DNA from: an uncultured Chitinophaga sp.
GTDB lineage: Bacteria; Bacteroidota; Bacteroidia; UKL13-3
Assembly (NCBI GenBank): GCA_964603255.1
Contig: CAZRVA010000001.1
Location: 1,177 to 65,176, forward strand
Length of the DNA: 64,000 nucleotides
Direction of reading: 5' to 3'
In this document: piece by piece, positions 28,052-38,646 of the stretch
Layout of the letters: the number at the start of each line of letters is the position of its first letter
How positions within the stretch are numbered: the stretch's first letter is position 1
Position numbers and translations under genes: made by a program
The notes under the pieces: model-generated
Told to the model about the DNA's origin: nothing
The model's input: only the letters and a program-made list of their open reading frames with translations
The model's database searches: none

Positions 28052-28059
28052 AACCTACC

Positions 28060-28800
28060 ATGCGTTACCTCATTCAACTTGCATACAAAGGCACCAATTA
28101 CCACGGTTGGCAAAAACAGCTTAACGCGCACAGTGTGCAAGGTGAGTTAGATAATAGGCTCAGTATTTTATTGGGCGAAACCATTGAAACGCTAGGCTGC
28201 GGCCGCACAGATACCGGTGTACACGCAAAAGATTTTTATGCGCATTTCGATACCACCAAAAATATTGATGTGCCATTTTTAATCCATAAACTCAACAACT
28301 TTTTACCAAAGGATATTGTCATTTTCAACATTCAGCAAGTAGCTGATGAGTTTAATGCACGCTTTGATGCAGAATGGCGCGAATATGAATATTGGATTTC
28401 GCGTAAACCCGACCCTTTTTTATTAGACCAAAGTTGGTTTTTACACGGCAACTTAAATGTTGATGCCATGAATGAAGCCGCACAATTATTGATTGGTAAA
28501 AAAGACTTTGAGTGTTTTAGCAAAGTGCACACGCAGGTAAACAACTTTATTTGTGATGTGATGTATGCCAAATGGGAACTACAAAACGATAAACTGGTTT
28601 TTACCATAAGGGCTAACAGGTTTTTACGTAACATGGTACGCGCCATTGTAGGTACTTTGGTTGATGTTGGTCAGGGTAAAATTACCATTGATGATGTAAA
28701 CAAAATTTTAGCGAGTAAAAACCGCAGCGAGGCCGGTAGAAGCGTTCCTGCTCATGGACTTTTTTTAACACGCATTTATTATCCCAACATCAACCAATAA
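28060..28800 (+). CDS. truA: tRNA pseudouridine(38-40) synthase
   Basis: MRYLIQLAYKGTNYHGWQKQ...GCGRTDTGVHA (catalytic Asp motif). The start was trimmed from the ORF-track 28003 to the ATG at 28060, one nt after the thiolase stop. Confidence 0.88.
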   Translation: MRYLIQLAYKGTNYHGWQKQLNAHSVQGELDNRLSILLGETIETLGCGRTDTGVHAKDFYAHFDTTKNIDVPFLIHKLNNFLPKDIVIFNIQQVADEFNARFDAEWREYEYWISRKPDPFLLDQSWFLHGNLNVDAMNEAAQLLIGKKDFECFSKVHTQVNNFICDVMYAKWELQNDKLVFTIRANRFLRNMVRAIVGTLVDVGQGKITIDDVNKILASKNRSEAGRSVPAHGLFLTRIYYPNINQ

Positions 28801-32012: not shown

Positions 32013-32897
32013 ATGGCAGTTTTAGTCGACAAAAATTCAAGGGTTATTGTGCAAGGCTTTACAGGTAGCGAAGGCACATTTCATGCTCAACAAATGATTG
32101 AGTATGGTACAAACGTAGTTGGTGGTGTTACACCGGGTAAAGGCGGACAAACACACTTAGATCGTCCTGTATTTAACACCGTTAAAGATGCGGTTGATCA
32201 AGCACAAGCCAATACATCAATTATTTTCGTTCCACCGGCATTTGCAGCAGACGCAATTATGGAAGCAGCTGATGCAGGAATTAAAGTTATTATTTGCATT
32301 ACAGAAGGTATTCCGGTAAAAGACATGATTCCGGTAAAAGAATACATTAAAGGAAAAGATTGCCGTTTAATTGGCCCTAACTGCCCTGGTGTTATTACTC
32401 CTGGTCAAGCTAAGGTTGGTATTATGCCGGGCTTCGTGTTTAAATCAGGCCGTATCGGTATTGTATCAAAATCAGGAACTTTAACTTACGAAGCTGCAGA
32501 TCAAGTAGTAAAAGCAGGTTTAGGTATTTCTACAGCAATTGGTATTGGTGGTGACCCAATTATTGGAACACCTACTAAAGATGCAGTAGAAATGTTAATG
32601 AACGACCCAGAAACTGATGCCATTATTATGATTGGTGAAATTGGTGGTAGCTACGAAGCAGATGCCGCTCGTTGGATTAAAGCTAACGGAAATCAAAAAC
32701 CGGTTGTAGGCTTTATTGCTGGCCAAACAGCGCCTCCGGGCCGCAGAATGGGTCATGCCGGTGCAATTGTTGGCGGACATGATGATACCGCTGCAGCTAA
32801 AATGGCTATCATGCGCGAGTGTGGTTTACACGTAGTAGAATCACCTGCTGAAATTGGTGCTAAAATGGTTGAAGCATTAGGTTTAAAAGCTAACTAA
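32013..32897 (+). CDS. sucD: Succinate--CoA ligase (ADP-forming) alpha subunit
   Basis: [45 protein letters not shown]... plus the His-phosphorylation region MGHAGAIV. The start was trimmed to the ATG at 32013. Confidence 0.9.
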
Positions 32898-32920
32898 GAT
32901 TTTAAAAATCTATAAAAAGA

Positions 32921-32955
32921 AAATCCCCGTTTCGAAAGAGACGGGGATTTTTTTG
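32921..32955. terminator. Bidirectional rho-independent terminator after sucD
   Basis: Stem tccccgt ... acgggga followed by T7. Confidence 0.8.
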
Positions 32956-32967
32956 TATGAATTGGCT

Positions 32968-33819
32968 TTATATATTGGCCATTCGCTCAGTAAACTTTTC
33001 GTACTTTAATATGATTGCTTCTGACTCAACTAAACCGTCAATGTCTTTAACAATAAACGGAATAATTGGATTACGTTTAATGCTGTCGACTAGTTTTTTG
33101 TGATCTTTGTCTTCAGGATAATTTATGTATAACTCATACGTACCCTCTCCATCAAGTTTTTTGTTTTTGGCTAAATTTTTTAGCCCCTCCGTTGTTATCC
33201 AAAAACTATTGATGTGACTTTGTATAGTTGGCAATTCAGCCTGAAAATCAACTGCTTTACCTGCAAATATGCTGCCATTACAAGCAATAAAATCAACTTT
33301 TGATGGTGCAAAAATATCCGGAACAAGCTTAGTTGTTAGCTCAAAATTAATATCAGCGTGCTTTTTAAAACTTTCCTTAGAAAGCACCTTTTTTACTTGT
33401 TTCCTGAAATCAGTTGGTTTGTTTTTTAGCGGCTTTTCTTCCAAGGCACCAACATATTTCAAATAGAATGATTCAAATATCCCTACATTGATTTCATTAG
33501 TAATTGGTTCTGGGGTAGTAAATTGTAGTAAGCCCGAACTGTACTTTGATAAGTAGGTAAAATAAGCAGATGAGTAGGTATTTTCTTTATTAGAGAACGC
33601 AGTTGTATTCACCTCTTTTATCTCAACTGCAATTCTTTTTAAATCATCATTAAGTGACTTAACTACATCTTTAGGTAAAATAGAAGAAGCTAACTTCAAT
33701 TTTTCATCAGAGTAATTAAAGTACATACCATTCTCACTACCGCAAAAAAGGCCAACACAAAGCCTTTCGTCAGAAACAAAATTGGTTTTTATATAAACTG
33801 CCGATAGGAAGTTTTTCAT
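32968..33819 (-). CDS. Hypothetical protein (283 aa), second gene of the kinase-like cassette
   Basis: Long ORF separated by 3 nt from the upstream kinase-like gene. No recognisable motif; Lys-rich. Confidence 0.6.
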   Translation of the reverse strand: MKNFLSAVYIKTNFVSDERLCVGLFCGSENGMYFNYSDEKLKLASSILPKDVVKSLNDDLKRIAVEIKEVNTTAFSNKENTYSSAYFTYLSKYSSGLLQFTTPEPITNEINVGIFESFYLKYVGALEEKPLKNKPTDFRKQVKKVLSKESFKKHADINFELTTKLVPDIFAPSKVDFIACNGSIFAGKAVDFQAELPTIQSHINSFWITTEGLKNLAKNKKLDGEGTYELYINYPEDKDHKKLVDSIKRNPIIPFIVKDIDGLVESEAIILKYEKFTERMANI

Positions 33820-33821
33820 AA

Positions 33822-34661
33822 CTAATAGGTCTTTTTTATGAGTTGAATAAATTCTTTAACACTTTTTTGTATGCCACTTATTCTTTCTGTATTTGTTACC
33901 AGAGCAAGCATATCATCTTTTAACGTTGCAGATAATTTCCAGGTTTTTGGAATTTGATTAAATAACTCATCTAATAAAGCATTAATTTGTTTTGGGTTGC
34001 AAAGGTATGCATATTTTTCAACTAAATCTACAACCGTTTGTATATCATAGTATTTGAGTATGAGTTCTTGAACAAACTGAGCCCTTAGAATAGTGTTATC
34101 TACGTGAAAATAGTGGTTAGGATTTATTTTGCCCAAATAGTTTAAACCACCAAAAGTATCGTAATGGTCAATAGCGTAAATTGTTCTGGTTTTCCCTTTT
34201 GAAAGTAAAAGATTGAAGTTTTCCGGATGCCTATCTTTATTCGCTATATGCATATCAAAAAGTGCTATTAAAATAAGGTCATATGGATTATTCATCTTTT
34301 TAAAATCTGATTTTTTATTTATCAGAGGTAAATTAGTTACCATATCAACATACTGAATTTCTTTAACGCCAAATGCCGTAATACCTTCTTTAAAAAATCT
34401 TAGGTTTCCGTAGTTTTTAATTCTACTATGTGCCAAAGAGTTTTTACATACGTTTACAAAAGCAGTTTCAGAAACCTCTAACCCAATTAATTCGGCTATC
34501 TTATTACAAGCAAGTTCATAAACCAAACAATCAAACTCTTTTGGATCTTGAATATACTTTGCGTAGTATGTCTCTTGGTCTTCACACAAAAAAGAAATCG
34601 GAGCATTTTTAGTTTCCGAGTATTCCGTTATCATTTTTTGTGTATTTACTGTTTTTATCAT
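33822..34661 (-). CDS. Atypical kinase-like protein with PI3K/PI4K-like (HipA-like) catalytic motifs
   Basis: A catalytic-loop-like DRHPENFN is followed ~20 aa later by AIDHYDTFG. That is the DRHxxN ... [HI]D[FH]G spacing seen in the PI3/PI4-kinase catalytic and activation loops, and it is related to the HipA D.H.KN motif. Confidence 0.5.
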   Translation of the reverse strand: MIKTVNTQKMITEYSETKNAPISFLCEDQETYYAKYIQDPKEFDCLVYELACNKIAELIGLEVSETAFVNVCKNSLAHSRIKNYGNLRFFKEGITAFGVKEIQYVDMVTNLPLINKKSDFKKMNNPYDLILIALFDMHIANKDRHPENFNLLLSKGKTRTIYAIDHYDTFGGLNYLGKINPNHYFHVDNTILRAQFVQELILKYYDIQTVVDLVEKYAYLCNPKQINALLDELFNQIPKTWKLSATLKDDMLALVTNTERISGIQKSVKEFIQLIKKTY

Positions 34662-34760
34662 AGGTGTTAGCTTCTACACGAAATTTACTATTAGTCTATG
34701 TAAAAGCGCTAATCATTTAGTGGTTATAATTTTTTAATTAACCGAATATATTAAAATAAT

Positions 34761-34800
34761 TAAAAATCCCCCACCGATTTTACTCGATGGGGGATTTTGT
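34761..34800. terminator. Rho-independent terminator downstream of nrdJ (bidirectional hairpin)
   Basis: 8-bp stem atccccca ... tgggggat, flanked by A5 on one side and T4 on the other. Confidence 0.75.
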
Positions 34801-34827
34801 ATAAAGTATAATTGTTAAATCTATTGA

Positions 34828-37800
34828 TTAACTGCAACCAGTTTGTGTACCGCAGTTCATGCATTTGTAACAAGCACCACTACGTATGGTTAAACTACCG
34901 CAGCTTGGGCAAGCAGGGCTATCGCCAAAGCTCTTTAAGTAAGCTTGTGTTTGATCTACCGTTGTTGCACTTGCTTCAGGAGCACTACTTGTTGGCTCTG
35001 CTACCGGAGTTGGTTTCATAAAACCAATTGGTGCAGGAGTTGCAGCAGGAGCACTCACCGGATTAATTACTACATTTTGTATGGTAGCAGTTGGCAAATT
35101 ATGTTTTTGGTTAACTGCTAAATGTGCGCGTTGCTCATCTGTTGCAGGTACCTGAATAAAATCTTCTCTACCCAAGTATTCAAATCCTAACATACGGAAC
35201 ATGTAATCGATAATTGAAGTAGCATTTTTAATGTTACTATGACCGGTTACCATACCTGCAGGTTCAAAACGGGTAAAGGTAAATTTATCTACGTACTCTT
35301 CTAAAGGCACACCGTATTGTAAACCTAATGATACTGCAATAGAGAAACAGTTCATTAACGAACGAAGTGTTGCACCTTCTTTGTGTAAGTCAACAAAAAT
35401 TTCACCTAACGTTCCATCTTCGTATTCACCTGTGCGCACAAATATGGTTTGTCCGCCAACACTTGCTTTTTGCGTAAAGCCTGTACGTTTACCAGGTAAT
35501 TGCTTACGCTCCACAATACGTGCTAACTTACGTTTAAATTCCGTATCATGACTACGATTTAAGATTGCTGTAGCTGCATCTAAAACTTGCTCAGGAGTTA
35601 ACTCACCAACCGGTTTGTTTGCATCAGCACCTAAAACAGATTCAACTGCTTCTTGTACTTCTTCCTCATCCTTAACATCAGATTTGTTGCTAAGTGGTTG
35701 AGACAATTTGCAACCATCACGATACAATGCATTTGCTTTTAAGCCCATGCTCCAACTTAAGTGGTAGCACTCTTTAATATCATCAACAGAGGCCTCATTT
35801 GGCAAGTTGATGGTTTTAGAAATAGCACCTGATAAGAAAGGTTGAGCAGCAGCCATCATACGGATATGACCTGTAGCAGCGATATAACGCTCTCCAATGT
35901 TTCCGCATTTATTTGCGCAATCAAATACAGCTAAGTGTTCTTCTTTTAATGCAGGAGCACCTTCTACTGTCATTGTTCCACATACATAGTTGTTTGCTTC
36001 TTCAATTTCGGCACGTGTAAATCCTAATTTGCGTAATAAGTTAAATTTAGGATGATTGTATTCGTCAGCAGTAAAGCCTAAACGTTGCATGCACTCTTCA
36101 CCTAAAGTCCAGTGGTTAAATGCGAAGCTAATTTCAAATGCACCCGAAGCTGCTTTATCTAACTTAGCAATTTCCTCTGCTGTAAATCCACGGAAAGCAA
36201 GGCTCTCTGGATTGATGTGAGGTGCACCGGTTAAGGTTGCATGACCAATTGCATATTTAATAATGGCATCACTTTCTTCTGTAGTGTAACCTAAATTCTT
36301 TAATGCAGCAGGAACTGATTGGTTGATGATTTTGAAATATCCACCACCTGATAATTTTTTAAATTTAACCAAAGCAAAGTCAGGTTCAATACCGGTAGTA
36401 TCGCAATCCATTACTAAACCAATTGTTCCGGTTGGAGCAATTACAGTGGTTTGAGCGTTGCGGTAACCATGTTTTTCACCTAATTGTACTGCATTATCCC
36501 ATGATGTGCAAGCAGCACTTAATAAGTAATCAGGGCAGTATTTAGGATCAATTCCAACAGGTTTAATTGTTAAACCTTCATAAGCATCAGTTGCGTTGTA
36601 TGCAGCATAGCGGTGGTTACGCATAACACGTAACATGTGATTTTTATTCTCTTCGTATTTAGGGAATGGACCTAAATGCGCAGCCATCTCGGCTGAAGTG
36701 CTGTATGCTGTACCGGTTAATATTGCAGTAATTGCACCACAAATAGCAAATGCTTTTGGTGAATCGTAAGGAATACCTGCAACCATTAAAGCAGAGCCTA
36801 AGTTAGCATAACCTAAACCTAAAGTGCGGTATTCGTAAGATAATTGTGCTACTTCTTGCGATGGGAACTGAGCCATCAGTACAGAAACTTCCAATACGAT
36901 AGTCCAGATACGCGAAGCATGCTCAATACCTTTTACATCAAACTCGCAAGTTTCAGGGTTGAAGAAACGCATTAAGTTTAATGATGCTAAGTTACATGCA
37001 GTATTATCTAAGAACATGTACTCTGAGCAAGGATTTGACGCATTGATTCTTCCACCCTCAGGGCAGGTATGCCATTCGTTAATGGTTGAATCGTATTGTA
37101 CACCTGGATCAGCACAAGCCCATGCAGCATCGCCAATCATATCCCATAATTCTTTTGCAGGGATTGATTTCATCACGTTGCCTTTAGCACGACCAATTAA
37201 ATCCCAGTTTTTACCTTCTTCTAATGCTTTAAAAAATGCATGAGGGATACGAACTGAGTTGTTTGAGTTTTGACCCGATACGGTTGCATAAGCTTCACCT
37301 TCGTAGTCGCTAGGATATCCTGCAGCAATTAAAGCTGCAACTTTTTTCTCTTCGTCTTTTTTCCAATTGAGGAATTCAACACTTGCCGGGTGATCCAAAT
37401 CAAGGCACACCATCTTAGCAGCACGGCTGGTTGTTCCTCCAGATTTAATTGCACCTGCAGCACGGTCACCGATTTTTAAGAAACTCATTAAACCAGATGA
37501 GGTTCCTCCACCAGATAGTTTTTCGCCTGCACCACGTACACGGCTAAAGTTTGTTCCTACACCCGAACCATACTTGAAAATACGTGCTTCACGTACCCAA
37601 AGATCCATGATACCACCTTCGTTTACCAAATCATCATCAACAGACAATATGAAACATGCGTGGGGCTGTGGACGTTCATATGCCGAAGTTGATTTTTCTA
37701 ATTTACCTGTTGTAGGATTTACGAAATAATGTCCTTGAGGTTTACCGGTAATACCGTATGAGCTGTGTAAGCCGGTGTTAAACCATTGTGGTGAGTTTGG

Positions 37801-38205
37801 TGCAGCATACTGACCAATAATCATAAATACCAACTCATCATAAAACTTGTTTGCATCTTCTGCAGAAGCAAAGTAACCGTATTGCTCACCCCACGATTTC
37901 CAGCAATGTGCCATACGATGTGCAACTTGCTTAATGGAGTTTTCGCTACCGGTTGTGCCATCAGGCATTGGAACACCCGCTTTGCGGAAATATTTTTGTG
38001 CTAATACATCCGTAGCAACTTGGCTCCAGAATTTCGGAACTTCAACGTTGTTTAACTCAAATACTTTTTCGCCATTTGGGTTTTTGATTACAGATGTACG
38101 TGTGTCGTATTCAAACAAGTCGAATGCGCTTACACCATCCTTGGTAAAGAAGCGATCCACGCGAAGGCCTCTTTGCTCGGTTTTTTTTGATGATTTGGTG
38201 CTCAT
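34828..38205 (-). CDS. nrdJ: Ribonucleoside-diphosphate/triphosphate reductase, class II (adenosylcobalamin-dependent) with C-terminal Zn-ribbon
   Basis: 1125 aa. The N-terminus and core ([14 protein letters not shown]...; active-site region NPCSEY; GxGxNFS) match class II RNR, and the tail CPSCGSLT...CYKCMNCG is a Zn-ribbon. Confidence 0.88.
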
Positions 38206-38646
38206 ATTATTGGAACAATTTTTTAGGTTTATAAGTCTTAAAAAAAGTAACTCCGTTTTTTTACGGGGTTTTTCATCAAAAATGGATTAGAATAAGTTTG
38301 GAATCAAACTGCATTTTCCACACGCAAAATTTTGCCAACATTCCACAGTCGCATTGCATAAGGGTTAAGCTATGTGCATAACCAAATTATTAACACACAA
38401 AAGCCCGATTTTACTGATTTAGCTTGCGCTTTTAATTCACTCTAAATGAGGTATTTTGTTGTTTAAAATAGACAGTGAGGCACTTACAAAATTAACATAA
38501 ACGTAATACCCTTATGCAATAAGCCTTTGCAGTTATTTGAGGAAATTTATCACACTAAAATCAAGAATTAAACACCACATTTTGCCAAAAAGTGCTTTAT
38601 TTGTAAGGATGAGCAAATACGATAAGCTGTTTGCCAATAACAAAGA
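38206..38646 (-). promoter_or_regulatory. Long (~440 nt) nrdJ 5' leader/promoter region with a 13-bp long-range inverted repeat, a 12-bp palindrome and a hairpin+T-run immediately upstream of the start codon
   Basis: The IR arms attgcataagggt (38353-38365) and acccttatgcaat (38508-38520) are separated by 142 nt. The palindrome gcaaaattttgc is at 38324-38335. A terminator-like hairpin plus T7 on the minus strand lies at 38241-38275. TTGGCAAA occurs three times. Confidence 0.4.

What the first reader, a model, noticed from the sequence alone, without database searches (positions are those of the whole stretch)
32968..34661. Two-gene cassette encoding an atypical PI3K/PI4K-like (HipA-like) kinase plus an uncharacterised 283-aa partner, inserted between sucD and nrdJ
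Seen in sequence: the 279-aa protein has DRHPENFN followed ~20 aa later by AIDHYDTFG. This is the catalytic-loop / activation-loop spacing of PI3/PI4-kinase-like and HipA-like kinases, and nothing else in the protein resembles a classic Hanks kinase. It is followed, 3 nt later, by a Lys-rich 283-aa protein with no recognisable domains. The pair is bracketed by strong terminators and housekeeping genes.

Inference: this could be a toxin-antitoxin-like or phage-defence-like accessory module, or a novel signalling pair.
Basis: partly seen in the sequence, partly recalled or inferred. Interest (0 to 1): 0.55.

Follow-up and report, generated by a model that had tools for sequence, protein, structure and literature searches.

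The report
HipA-like kinase anti-phage toxin–antitoxin pair
The two genes are a divergent Bacteroidota copy of a recently validated two-gene anti-phage system (a small HipA-type toxin kinase plus a DUF3037-type neutralising partner), sitting in a genomic slot where related bacteria carry other defence genes; it is a real accessory module but of an already described kind.

Summary
Two tightly coupled minus-strand ORFs lie between sucD and nrdJ: a 279-aa kinase (33822-34661) and a 283-aa partner (32968-33819).

- **Kinase.** It belongs to Pfam HipA_2 (60 bits, cut-off 27) and matches PADLOC PDC-M66A. Its catalytic Asp143 aligns with the Asp139 that is essential for defence in E. coli DS-6A.
- **Partner.** No library hits it directly. 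An exhaustive profile search found about 520 cluster representatives of the same length. Of 141 scanned, 15 hit DUF3037 and 10 hit PDC-M66B. The family profile aligns end to end with validated DS-6B (hhalign E 9e-6; 27.7 bits against at most 9.2 for shuffles).
- **Partner structure.** AlphaFold2 with the deep alignment gives pLDDT 93. The model has a DUF3037-like N domain and a restriction-endonuclease-like C domain without a conserved catalytic motif.
- **Gene pairing.** The kinase sits directly upstream of the partner in every related locus that includes the upstream DNA.
- **Genomic slot.** Contigs with a 100% identical SucD lose homology at 32962 and carry other cargo, such as a Type IIG R-M enzyme. 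The cassette GC is 0.31 against 0.39-0.42 in the flanks.

Verdict: a new, divergent member of the HipA_2/DUF3037 system (PDC-M66 = DS-6 = HipAD). It most likely works as a toxin-antitoxin-like abortive-infection module. Interest is modest.

The parts
33822..34661 (-). Gene A: 279-aa HipA_2-family Ser/Thr-kinase-like protein, the predicted toxin/effector. It has the kinase core only, with no HipA N-terminal domain.
   Evidence: ORF. Pfam PF20613 HipA_2 at E 2e-16, 60.4 bits (cut-off 27), residues 16-250. HipA_C at 28.4 bits, below its cut-off. PADLOC PDC-M66A at E 7.4e-10. phrog_3162 at E 2.6e-25. hhalign to E. coli HipA at E 1.3e-4 and to DS-6A at E 1.1e-4.
34218..34235 (-). Catalytic loop D143-R-H-P-E-N148.
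   Evidence: Read. It aligns with HipA D309-G-H-A-K-N314. D143 aligns with DS-6A D139, whose D139A mutant loses defence (PMC13092281 and its supplement). D143 and N148 are invariant in 6 relatives.
34158..34172 (-). I164-D-H-Y-D168, the predicted Mg2+-binding (DFG-equivalent) motif.
   Evidence: IDH aligns with the IDH of DS-6A. HYD aligns with the FYD (D332) of HipA. Which Asp binds metal is therefore unresolved. Both are invariant.
34557..34559 (-). Codon of Lys35 (YYAKY), the predicted ATP-binding lysine.
   Evidence: K35 aligns with K42 of DS-6A in an ungapped stretch that also conserves P-x-FLC. Invariant. The functional role is inferred from the kinase fold.
32968..33819 (-). Gene B: 283-aa two-domain partner, the predicted antitoxin/sensor and DS-6B-like.
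   Evidence: ORF. No direct family hits. The family has 520 cluster representatives. The family profile against DS-6B gives hhalign probability 83%, E 8.8e-6, colinear over 235 columns. The HMM scores 27.7 bits against a maximum of 9.2 in 2000 shuffles. The AF2 model has pLDDT 93.
33445..33819 (-). Partner N domain (residues 1-125), a divergent DUF3037 domain.
   Evidence: 15 of 141 family members hit PF11236 DUF3037 (best E 2.4e-5). The hits cover member residues about 5-130 and the whole 118-position model. 10 of 141 hit PADLOC PDC-M66B (best E 7e-11). The N domain alone scores 22.1 bits against the DS-6B N half. It forms a compact domain in the AF2 model.
32971..33414 (-). Partner C domain (residues 136-283), with a restriction-endonuclease-like (PD-(D/E)xK-type) fold. 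It is probably non-catalytic and corresponds in position to the DUF1829-like region of DS-6B.
   Evidence: AF2 blocks from residue 141 onward have pLDDT 92-98. The best PDB fold matches are all nucleases of this fold: Can2 at E 3.4e-3, then Shedu, Mus81-Eme1, N.BspD6I, BstEII and Bse634I. BFVD matches include DUF1828, DUF2726 and 'restriction enzyme' proteins. No D...(D/E)xK motif is conserved; only N181 and D191 exceed 90%.
34662..34762 (-). AT-rich 5' region of the operon, the presumed promoter. It contains palindrome 34731-34766.
   Evidence: It is conserved only among close relatives. One sigma-70-like match lies at 34805-34777. Bacteroidota promoters are not covered by that scan, so promoter function is inferred.
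34763..34798 (-). Intrinsic-terminator hairpin downstream of nrdJ, at the upstream edge of the cassette.
   Evidence: 15-bp stem with 7 G-C pairs and a T-run. Folds at -25.1 kcal/mol, z -5.9.
32917..32954 (.). Bidirectional terminator hairpin between convergent sucD and gene B. It belongs to the conserved sucD flank.
   Evidence: 17-nt arms with a 4-nt loop. Folds at -25.8 kcal/mol on + and -17.2 on -, with U-runs on both strands. Homology with cassette-less contigs runs through it to 32962.
32963..34808 (.). Variable (inserted) segment of about 1.85 kb whose only cargo is the two-gene cassette.
   Evidence: L010, L011 and L012 have a 100% identical SucD protein and 90-99% nucleotide identity up to 32962, then no homology. 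L003 nrdJ homology ends at 34809. GC is 0.31 against 0.39-0.42 in the flanks.

Best explanation
The cassette is a two-gene toxin-antitoxin-like anti-phage module of the HipA_2/DUF3037 type (PADLOC PDC-M66, DefensePredictor DS-6, 'HipAD').

**Components.** Gene A encodes a minimal HipA-family Ser/Thr kinase. Gene B is translationally coupled, 2 nt downstream. It encodes a two-domain protein with a divergent DUF3037 N domain and a restriction-endonuclease-like, apparently non-catalytic C domain.

**Proposed mechanism.** The partner binds the kinase and keeps it inactive. During phage infection this inhibition is lost or overridden. The kinase then phosphorylates an essential host protein, or possibly a phage protein. 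By analogy with HipA, HipT and related kinases, the target would most plausibly be in the translation apparatus, such as an aminoacyl-tRNA synthetase. This arrests the infected cell and blocks phage production.

**What is shown here:**
- family membership of both proteins;
- intact catalytic residues in the kinase;
- strict gene pairing;
- accessory status in a variable slot that holds restriction-modification genes in sister genomes.

**What is shown only for homologues, in the literature:**
- the kinase active site is required for defence;
- deleting the kinase abolishes defence;
- deleting the DUF3037 gene is toxic.

**What is inferred:** the trigger, the kinase target, any DNA binding by the partner, and activity of this particular copy.
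For: **Kinase.**
- Pfam HipA_2 at 60.4 bits against a cut-off of 27.
- PADLOC PDC-M66A at E 7.4e-10.
- D143 aligns with DS-6A D139, IDH with IDH, and K35 with K42.
- The catalytic loop aligns with HipA D309/N314.
- DS-6A itself is HipA_2 at 258 bits, and DS-6B is DUF3037 at 85 bits.

**Partner.**
- The exhaustive profile search gives 520 representatives, nearly all 275-300 aa.
- DUF3037 is the only recurrent Pfam family (15 of 141). PDC-M66B is the only recurrent PADLOC family (10 of 141).
- hhalign to DS-6B gives probability 83%, E 8.8e-6, colinear across both domains.
- The family HMM scores DS-6B at 27.7 bits against at most 9.2 in 2000 shuffles.

**Gene pairing.** The kinase lies immediately 5' of the partner in every related locus that includes the upstream DNA: L001/L002, L003, L004 (only the kinase C-terminal end is on this 1.2-kb contig), L005, L006, L008, L009, L015-17 and L018. 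This holds down to 25-30% identity and in different neighbourhoods: recR, lepA/hrpB and nrdJ.

**Accessory status and hotspot.**
- Homology to contigs with identical SucD stops at 32962. Those contigs carry a Type IIG REase-MTase (PADLOC 1122 bits) or a DUF4325 cluster instead.
- In L003 the pair sits next to a Type IIG R-M enzyme and a weak ParE-like pair.
- There is a GC dip to 0.31.

**Decay pattern.** In the close relative L005 the kinase carries a premature stop while the partner stays intact. This is the asymmetry expected for a toxin and an antitoxin.

**Literature.**
- The DS-6 D139A mutant loses defence, and AF3 predicts an A-B complex (PMC13092281).
- In the Sphingobacterium daejeonense Retron-Sda1 operon, deleting HipA abolishes defence and deleting DUF3037 is toxic. 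The pair works without the retron RT or ncRNA (PMC12548924).
Against: - The window's partner gives no hit to DUF3037, PDC-M66B or NCBIfam models even at E<=10. Its membership therefore rests on profile-level and transitive evidence.
- The family members' own DUF3037 hits that I inspected were below the Pfam gathering score (at most 21 bits against 22.6).
- Homology of the C domain to the DUF1829-like region of DS-6B is not independently significant.
- The hhalign probabilities against single sequences are moderate: 83% for the partner, and 54-56% for the kinase.
- No structure of the kinase was predicted, and no PDB sequence relative was found.
- No kinase-partner complex could be modelled.
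- Nothing here shows toxicity, neutralisation or phage defence for this copy.
- The cassette stands alone among housekeeping genes in this genome rather than in a multi-system island.
- No conserved operator was found upstream.
Confidence: 0.7

Rival explanations
1. A plain type II toxin-antitoxin 'addiction' or persistence module. The kinase toxin and protein antitoxin stabilise the locus or promote dormancy, with no role in phage defence.
For: It has the same TA-like architecture and the same asymmetry in the decay of the kinase. HipA-family kinases are classical persistence toxins (PMC8262856). Small TA pairs are scattered in these genomes: ParE/YoeB in L010 and a weak ParE in L003.
Against: Homologous HipA_2/DUF3037 pairs were directly shown to protect against phage in two independent studies (PMC13092281, PMC12548924). 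The slot is occupied by R-M enzymes in sister genomes. The two roles are not mutually exclusive.
Confidence: 0.15
2. The partner is the effector. Its restriction-endonuclease-like C domain is an active nuclease that the kinase regulates, reversing the toxin/antitoxin roles.
For: All top PDB fold matches are PD-(D/E)xK nucleases, including the defence nucleases Can2 and Shedu. BFVD matches are annotated restriction enzyme or endonuclease-like. One family member weakly hits the AHJR-like REase family.
Against: No D...(D/E)xK motif is conserved. D176 is present in only 49% of members and K180 in 58%, and the window protein has Cys at 180. Only N181 and D191 are near-invariant. The fold E-values are weak, 3e-3 or worse against PDB. 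In the homologous system, deleting the DUF3037 gene is toxic and deleting the kinase abolishes defence (PMC12548924). That fits kinase as toxin.
Confidence: 0.07
3. A housekeeping signalling pair or small-molecule kinase, for example a metabolite or antibiotic kinase with an accessory protein, unrelated to conflict systems.
For: The cassette lies between metabolic genes sucD and nrdJ. NCBIfam has no name for either protein. The protein-kinase-like fold also includes small-molecule kinases (general knowledge).
Against: The cassette is absent from contigs with an identical SucD. Its neighbourhood differs in every lineage. GC is atypical. The kinase is pseudogenised in a close relative. The best family matches are defence candidates.
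Confidence: 0.04
4. An inactive remnant: intact ORFs that no longer function, carried passively in a recombination hotspot.
For: The L005 kinase has a nonsense codon. Among close relatives the kinase diverges faster (86-88% aa) than the partner (93-95%).
Against: In the window both ORFs are full length, all catalytic residues are invariant, and coupling is preserved. The pair is conserved down to 25% identity.
Confidence: 0.04

Closest known systems
DS-6 / 'HipAD' of E. coli: DS-6A WP_000389051.1 with DS-6B WP_000210934.1. Sources: DefensePredictor, PMC13092281; Brenes & Laub 2025, pmid 40409266, cited there but not held in the library.
   Same: - A two-gene operon with the kinase first and the partner immediately after (a 4-nt overlap there, a 2-nt spacer here).
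- A HipA_2 kinase of 249 aa there and 279 aa here, with the same catalytic Asp, the IDH motif and the P-x-FLC...K N-terminal motif.
- A partner of 275 aa there and 283 aa here, with a DUF3037 N domain and a second C-terminal domain, colinear over 235 columns.
   Different: - Sequence similarity is very low (about 19-26% in hhalign).
- The window's partner is missed by the Pfam DUF3037 and PADLOC PDC-M66B models.
- No family member hits DUF1829.
- The host is a Bacteroidota chromosome slot, not an E. coli prophage or unplaced scaffold.
- Activity is untested.
HipA-like/DUF3037 pair inside the Retron-Sda1 operon of Sphingobacterium daejeonense (PMC12548924); PADLOC candidate PDC-M66.
   Same: - The same phylum (Bacteroidota) and the same two-gene unit, recognised as PDC-M66.
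- Genetics there fit kinase as toxin and DUF3037 protein as neutraliser.
- The window kinase hits PDC-M66A, and 10 of 141 partner-family members hit PDC-M66B.
   Different: - That operon also has an upstream HTH gene and a retron RT/ncRNA. The window has neither: only 166 nt separate the kinase start from the nrdJ stop.
- The authors report that the C terminus of that DUF3037 protein resembles the DNA-binding protein of type III-A1 retrons. Here the C domain looks restriction-endonuclease-like.
- A direct comparison was not possible because the stored sequence is truncated.
Canonical HipBA type II toxin-antitoxin system (E. coli K-12 hipBA).
   Same: The kinase superfamily and catalytic-loop chemistry: D-x-H-x-x-N aligned with D309...N314, and the downstream Asp. 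The logic of a toxin kinase neutralised by a protein partner.
   Different: - There is no HipB-type HTH antitoxin.
- Gene order is reversed: the neutraliser is downstream here and upstream in hipBA.
- The kinase is 279 aa and lacks the HipA N-terminal domain (HipA is 440 aa).
- HipA_C scores below the Pfam cut-off.
DUF1828/DUF1829 and other PD-(D/E)xK-fold proteins (Can2 nuclease domain, Shedu SduA nuclease domain, Mus81).
   Same: The fold of the partner's C domain, by Foldseek.
   Different: E-values are weak, there is no sequence-level match, and no conserved catalytic triad.

Membership tests
HipA_2/DUF3037 two-gene defence system (PDC-M66 = DS-6 = HipAD) | Gene A is a short HipA_2 (PF20613) kinase. 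| tested here: met
   Pfam HipA_2 at 60.4 bits against a cut-off of 27, residues 16-250. PDC-M66A at E 7.4e-10 over residues 1-257. The reference DS-6A is HipA_2 at 258 bits.
HipA_2/DUF3037 two-gene defence system (PDC-M66 = DS-6 = HipAD) | The kinase catalytic residues are intact, including the equivalent of DS-6A D139, which is required for defence. | tested here: met
   D143 aligns with D139, N148 is present, IDH aligns with IDH, and K35 aligns with K42. All are invariant in six relatives.
HipA_2/DUF3037 two-gene defence system (PDC-M66 = DS-6 = HipAD) | Gene B carries an N-terminal DUF3037 domain. | tested here: met
   Met at profile level only. Direct Pfam and PADLOC scans give no hit at E<=10. 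Of the protein's HMMER family, 15 of 141 hit DUF3037 over the full model at member residues about 5-130, and 10 of 141 hit PDC-M66B. hhalign to DS-6B gives E 8.8e-6. The HMM scores 27.7 bits overall and 22.1 bits for the N half, against at most 9.2 for shuffles.
HipA_2/DUF3037 two-gene defence system (PDC-M66 = DS-6 = HipAD) | Gene B has a second, C-terminal domain (assigned DUF1829 in DS-6B, HHpred probability 0.78). | tested here: inconclusive
   A confident C domain exists. It aligns colinearly with DS-6B residues 150-246, and its fold resembles DUF1828/DUF1829-type and PD-(D/E)xK proteins. However, no family member hits Pfam DUF1829, and the C half alone is not detected by the HMM.
HipA_2/DUF3037 two-gene defence system (PDC-M66 = DS-6 = HipAD) | Operon order is kinase then partner, tightly coupled, and conserved as a pair. 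| tested here: met
   There is a 2-nt spacer here. The kinase is directly upstream of the partner in all related loci that include the upstream DNA. In DS-6 the genes overlap by 4 nt in the same order.
HipA_2/DUF3037 two-gene defence system (PDC-M66 = DS-6 = HipAD) | Accessory, patchily distributed, and associated with other defence genes. | tested here: met
   The cargo differs in contigs with an identical SucD, including a Type IIG R-M enzyme. It lies next to a Type IIG R-M enzyme in L003. There is a GC dip.
HipA_2/DUF3037 two-gene defence system (PDC-M66 = DS-6 = HipAD) | Protects against phage; the kinase is toxic without the partner. | not testable with these tools
   Shown only for homologues (PMC13092281, PMC12548924).
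Canonical HipBA toxin-antitoxin | An upstream HipB (XRE-type HTH) antitoxin gene. | tested here: not met
   There is no ORF between the nrdJ stop (34828) and the kinase start (34661). The partner has no HTH hit. Compare the E. coli hipBA layout.
Canonical HipBA toxin-antitoxin | A full-length HipA with an N-terminal domain, and HipA_C above threshold. | tested here: not met
   The protein is 279 aa. HipA_C scores 28.4 bits, below the 30.5 cut-off, and there is no HipA N-domain hit. hhalign covers only HipA residues 202-342.
PI3K/PI4K lipid/protein kinases | A match to the PI3_PI4_kinase catalytic domain. | tested here: not met
   No such Pfam hit at E<=10. Only HipA_2, HipA_C and a weak Fam20C hit were returned.
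PD-(D/E)xK nucleases (partner C domain) | A conserved catalytic D...(D/E)xK motif on the core beta-strands. | tested here: not met
   Column conservation in 141 sequences: D176 49%, K180 58% (Cys in the window protein), and no conserved acidic-x-Lys on strand 184-190. Only N181 and D191 exceed 90%. The fold resemblance itself is weak but consistent.

The most novel reading that the evidence does not exclude
The roughly 520-cluster partner family found here escapes the DUF3037 and PDC-M66B models. All four genome-collection loci recovered for it are Bacteroidota. It could be a mechanistically distinct branch of the HipA_2/DUF3037 system. In that reading, the restriction-endonuclease-like C domain acts as a nucleic-acid sensor that detects phage DNA, or a DNA modification or structure, and thereby releases the kinase. 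Less likely, it is an unconventional nuclease effector. Either way it would be a kinase-based defence with a new sensing principle, rather than a simple labile-antitoxin mechanism.
Probability: 0.15. Interest if true: 0.55.

Novelty: new member of a known kind. Interest (0 to 1): 0.3.

Why it matters
- **Annotation gap.** The HipA_2/DUF3037 ('HipAD', DS-6, PDC-M66) defence type extends to a large, divergent set of two-domain partners. Current Pfam, PADLOC and NCBIfam models do not recognise them directly, so such systems are likely under-counted in annotation, particularly in Bacteroidota.
- **Structural lead.** The confident model of the partner (pLDDT 93) gives a concrete hypothesis for the uncharacterised half of the system: a DUF3037 domain plus a degenerate restriction-endonuclease-like domain.
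- **Hotspot.** The sucD-nrdJ junction in this Chitinophaga-like lineage is identified as a defence-gene exchange hotspot, which could be mined for further cargo.

None of this overturns current understanding. It is an incremental extension.

Tried and rejected
- **Direct scans of the partner.** Pfam, NCBIfam, PADLOC and PHROGs gave nothing.
- **Word-indexed homology searches.** They found only 3-6 relatives, even when queried with the 141-sequence profile. Only the exhaustive search opened up the family.
- **First AF2 run.** With 4 sequences it failed (pLDDT 53).
- **PDB sequence searches.** The kinase returned nothing. The partner returned only chance-level SPT16 hits.
- **tblastn against PLSDB plasmids and INPHARED phages.** Nothing for the partner. 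The kinase gave a single weak Niallia hit among plasmids and nothing among phages. There is thus no evidence that this subfamily rides on sequenced plasmids or phages.
- **Genome-collection scan.** The 12-sequence alignment returned only 4 loci, so no quantitative phyletic census was possible.
- **Mobility signatures.** I looked for flanking direct repeats, att-like sites, tRNA genes or an integrase. None were found, only short chance-level repeats.
- **Conserved operator upstream of the kinase.** None was found beyond close relatives.
- **Structured RNAs.** Rfam found none in the window.
- **Primary HipAD paper.** I searched for it; it is not held in the library.
- **Retron-Sda1 protein sequences.** They are truncated in the stored supplement.
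- **Considered and rejected:** a PI3K/PI4K assignment (no hit), a canonical HipBA assignment (no HipB, no HipA N domain), and an active PD-(D/E)xK nuclease (motif not conserved).
Full report
**1. What is in the sequence**

Two minus-strand ORFs occupy the coordinates given. A 279-aa ORF runs 33822..34661 and a 283-aa ORF runs 32968..33819. The stop codon of the first and the ATG of the second are separated by two bases, so the pair is almost certainly one operon with coupled translation.

DRHPEN is residues 143-148 (window 34218-34235). IDHYD is residues 164-168 (34158-34172).

The neighbours are:
- sucD, on the + strand. The 294-aa form at 32013-32897 is identical to called SucD proteins elsewhere.
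- A 1125-aa class II ribonucleotide reductase at 34828-38205, on the - strand. Its orthologues carry Ribonuc_red_2_N, Ribonuc_red_lgC and TSCPD domains.

Two strong hairpins bracket the pair:
- 32917-32954 folds at -25.8 kcal/mol on + and -17.2 on -, with U-runs on both strands. It is a bidirectional terminator for the convergent sucD and gene B.
- 34763-34798 folds at -25.1 kcal/mol on the - strand, downstream of nrdJ.

No shuffle folded as well as either. 'Lys-rich' is a weak descriptor. The partner is 12% Lys with pI 7.6, and the kinase is 10% Lys, in DNA of about 31% GC.

**2. The kinase**

Pfam places it in HipA_2 (PF20613) at E 2e-16. The score is 60.4 bits against a curated cut-off of 27, over residues 16-250. 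HipA_C scores 28.4 bits, just under its cut-off, and no PI3_PI4_kinase hit appears even at E<=10.

PADLOC's best match is PDC-M66A (E 7.4e-10, residues 1-257). PHROGs gives phrog_3162, a family of unknown function (E 2.6e-25). NCBIfam has nothing, and there is no sequence relative in the PDB.

Profile-to-sequence alignment against E. coli K-12 HipA (fetched) aligns residues 48-178 with HipA 202-342. This puts DRHPEN on HipA's D309-G-H-A-K-N314 and HYD on F-Y-D332 (E 1.3e-4, probability 54%).

The protein is only the kinase core. It lacks HipA's N-terminal domain. The fold assignment therefore rests on the family match.

**3. The partner**

Direct scans find no domain. The word-indexed search found only three relatives. 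The exhaustive HMMER search with a 4-sequence profile found 520 cluster representatives at E<=1e-3, of which 344 were at E<=1e-10. Nearly all are 275-300 aa and matched end to end.

I aligned 141 of them (alignment A3) and scanned each one:
- The only recurrent Pfam family is DUF3037: 15 members, best E 2.4e-5.
- The only recurrent PADLOC family is PDC-M66B: 10 members, best E 7e-11.
- In the members I inspected, the DUF3037 hits cover member residues about 5-130 and the entire 118-position model. They score at or just under the gathering threshold.

AlphaFold2 with 4 sequences failed (pLDDT 53). With the 141-sequence alignment it gave pLDDT 93. That model has two domains joined by a low-confidence linker: an N domain (about residues 1-123) and a C domain (about 136-283).

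Foldseek against the PDB returns only weak matches, best E 3.4e-3. They are strikingly uniform, all nucleases of the restriction-endonuclease (PD-(D/E)xK) fold: the Can2 nuclease domain, the Shedu nuclease domain, Mus81-Eme1, XPF-ERCC1, N.BspD6I, BstEII and Bse634I. Each aligns over about 145 columns, the size of the C domain.

Foldseek against BFVD returns:
- two phage proteins of the same size and two-domain layout (E 6e-10 and 3e-9);
- a 125-aa single-domain phage protein (TM 0.77 on the target);
- DUF1828, DUF2726 and 'restriction enzyme' proteins.

Column conservation shows no D...(D/E)xK signature. D176 is present in 49% of members and K180 in 58%, and the window protein has Cys at 180. 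Only N181 and D191 are near-invariant in the C domain. I therefore read the C domain as a degenerate, probably non-catalytic nuclease-like fold.

**4. Link to a known, validated system**

The literature search showed that 'HipA-like kinase + DUF3037 protein' is a recognised two-gene unit. PADLOC lists it as candidate PDC-M66.

Two studies tested it:
- **Retron-Sda1 operon of Sphingobacterium daejeonense (Bacteroidota).** Deleting the kinase abolished defence against phage Bas51. Deleting the DUF3037 gene was toxic. The retron RT and ncRNA were dispensable (PMC12548924).
- **DefensePredictor.** An E. coli pair was validated as DS-6 and renamed HipAD, citing Brenes & Laub 2025. The D139A kinase mutant lost defence. 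AF3 predicted an A-B complex and weaker B-DNA contacts. DS-6B was described as DUF3037 (residues 7-125) plus DUF1829 (163-260, HHpred probability 0.78) (PMC13092281).

I took the DS-6 sequences from that paper's supplement. DS-6A is HipA_2 at 258 bits, and DS-6B is DUF3037 at 85 bits.

The partner-family profile aligns with DS-6B colinearly over 235 columns, partner 3-249 against DS-6B 5-246 (probability 83%, E 8.8e-6). An HMM of the family scores DS-6B at 27.7 bits end to end, against a maximum of 9.2 bits in 2000 shuffles. The N half alone scores 22.1 bits. The C half alone is not detected.

The kinase profile aligns with DS-6A (E 1.1e-4). D143 falls on D139, IDH on IDH, K35 on K42, and a shared P-x-FLC motif is conserved.

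Gene order (kinase first), tight coupling and protein sizes are the same: 249 and 275 aa there, 279 and 283 aa here.

**5. Pairing and genomic context**

The kinase lies immediately upstream of the partner in every related locus that includes the upstream DNA:
- L001/L002, next to recR (51% partner identity).
- L003, downstream of nrdJ.
- L004, a 1.2-kb contig that carries only the C-terminal end of the kinase upstream of the partner.
- L005 and L006, the same sucD/nrdJ site. L006 is an uncultured Chitinophaga MAG.
- L008 and L009, from Bacteroidota and Sphingobacteriaceae MAGs.
- L015-L017, between lepA and hrpB (29% identity, again a 2-nt spacer).
- L018, at 25% identity.

The cassette is accessory. 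Three contigs that encode a 100% identical SucD (L010, L011, L012) match the window at 90-99% nucleotide identity up to position 32962, just past the sucD terminator. Beyond that they share nothing with it.

Their cargo at that point differs:
- L010 has 53-aa and 183-aa ORFs plus a 1043-aa Type IIG restriction-modification enzyme (PADLOC 1122 bits).
- L012 has a DUF4325 STAS-like protein with 65-aa and 504-aa ORFs.

On the other side, nrdJ homology with L003 ends at 34809. There, nrdJ is followed by a Type IIG R-M enzyme, two small ORFs, the kinase/partner pair, and a 70-aa plus 82-aa pair with a weak ParE match.

The variable segment in the window is therefore about 32963-34808. Its GC is 0.31 against 0.39-0.42 in the flanking genes.

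I found no integrase, tRNA gene, att-like repeats or IS ends. How the cargo is exchanged is unknown; homologous recombination through the conserved flanks is my inference.

In the 87%-identical relative L005, the kinase has an in-frame stop at codon 183 while the partner is intact. This decay pattern fits a toxin and its antitoxin. A metagenome assembly error cannot be excluded.

**6. Mechanism**

The best-supported reading is a toxin-antitoxin-like abortive-infection or dormancy module. The DUF3037-type partner binds and restrains the HipA_2 kinase. Infection relieves the restraint. The kinase then phosphorylates an essential target and stops growth and phage production.

- **Shown here:** family membership, intact catalytic residues, strict pairing, and accessory status in a slot shared with R-M genes.
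- **Shown only in homologues:** the requirement for the kinase active site, toxicity on loss of the partner, and protection against phage.
- **Inferred:** the trigger; the target (by analogy with HipA acting on GltX and split HipA homologues acting on TrpS, PMC6581861); and whether the nuclease-like C domain binds DNA as an autoregulator or a sensor.

Rivals are scored in the rival section of this report. They are a pure addiction or persistence TA, the partner as a nuclease effector, a housekeeping kinase, and an inactive remnant.

**7. Comparison and novelty**

The cassette works like DS-6/HipAD/PDC-M66, and by profile-level tests it is a member of that kind. It differs in three ways:
- Divergence is extreme. 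The partner is invisible to the curated models.
- No DUF1829 sequence signal is detectable.
- There is no upstream HTH gene such as the one in the Sda1 operon.

It is not a canonical HipBA system, because it has no HipB, reversed gene order and no HipA N domain. It is not a PI3K/PI4K. I rate it a new member of a known kind.

It is worth recording for three reasons: the annotation gap, the confident partner model, and the sucD-nrdJ defence hotspot. A specialist would not be surprised by it.

**8. Limits**

- The kinase has no structural model, and no complex was modelled.
- The hhalign probabilities against single sequences are moderate.
- The taxonomic spread of the family was sampled through only four genome loci and a handful of metagenome contigs.
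- The primary HipAD paper could not be read.

Noticed in passing
L005:7159-7998 (orthologue of window 33822-34661): In a relative about 87% identical, the kinase carries an in-frame stop at codon 183 (NPN*YF; the window has NPNHYF). The partner is intact at 95% identity. Among close relatives the kinase is also less conserved (86-88% aa) than the partner (93-95%). This could be toxin-first decay or an assembly error.
   Followed up: partly
window 32963-34808; L010:5950-10700; L012:1049-4383; L003:2924-9417: The sucD-nrdJ junction is a cargo-exchange hotspot. Contigs with a 100% identical SucD carry a Type IIG REase-MTase plus 53-aa and 183-aa ORFs (L010), or a DUF4325 STAS-like protein with 65-aa and 504-aa ORFs of unknown function (L012). 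L003 combines a Type IIG R-M enzyme, the kinase pair and small ORFs. The 183-aa and 504-aa proteins have no Pfam or PADLOC match and could be uncharacterised defence genes.
   Followed up: partly
window 28052-28060 vs L010:510-1047: L010 carries a 75-aa plus 87-aa ParE/YoeB-type toxin-antitoxin pair between the thiolase and pseudouridine-synthase genes. It sits exactly where the window has only a 7-nt junction. This is a second small variable TA insertion in the lineage.
   Followed up: no
L003:8927-9417: Immediately downstream of the kinase/partner pair in L003 lie 70-aa and 82-aa ORFs. The second has a weak ParE_toxin match (E 0.003). This is possibly another TA pair in the same islet.
   Followed up: no
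window 33822-34661 and 32968-33819 (protein level): The kinase matches phage family phrog_3162 (E 2.6e-25). The partner model matches two two-domain phage proteins in BFVD (A0A516KZK0 and A0A516KTX2, E 6e-10 and 3e-9). Yet tblastn finds neither protein in 50,697 GenBank phage records or 72,556 plasmids, apart from one weak kinase hit among the plasmids. Phage-borne relatives exist but are distant.
   Followed up: partly
window 1-64000: No tRNA or tmRNA gene and no Rfam family reach threshold anywhere in the 64-kb window. In particular, nothing was detected in the roughly 440-nt gap upstream of nrdJ (38206-38646).
   Followed up: no
L009:5161-6853: In the Sphingobacteriaceae MAG (a long-read 'tig' contig), both the kinase and the partner are split into two frames. 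This most likely reflects indel errors in the assembly rather than real pseudogenes.
   Followed up: no
window 34731-34766: An AT-rich imperfect palindrome (22-nt arms, 82% complementary) lies in the presumed promoter region of the operon. It abuts the nrdJ terminator and is conserved only in close relatives. It could be an operator, or just low-complexity AT-rich DNA.
   Followed up: partly
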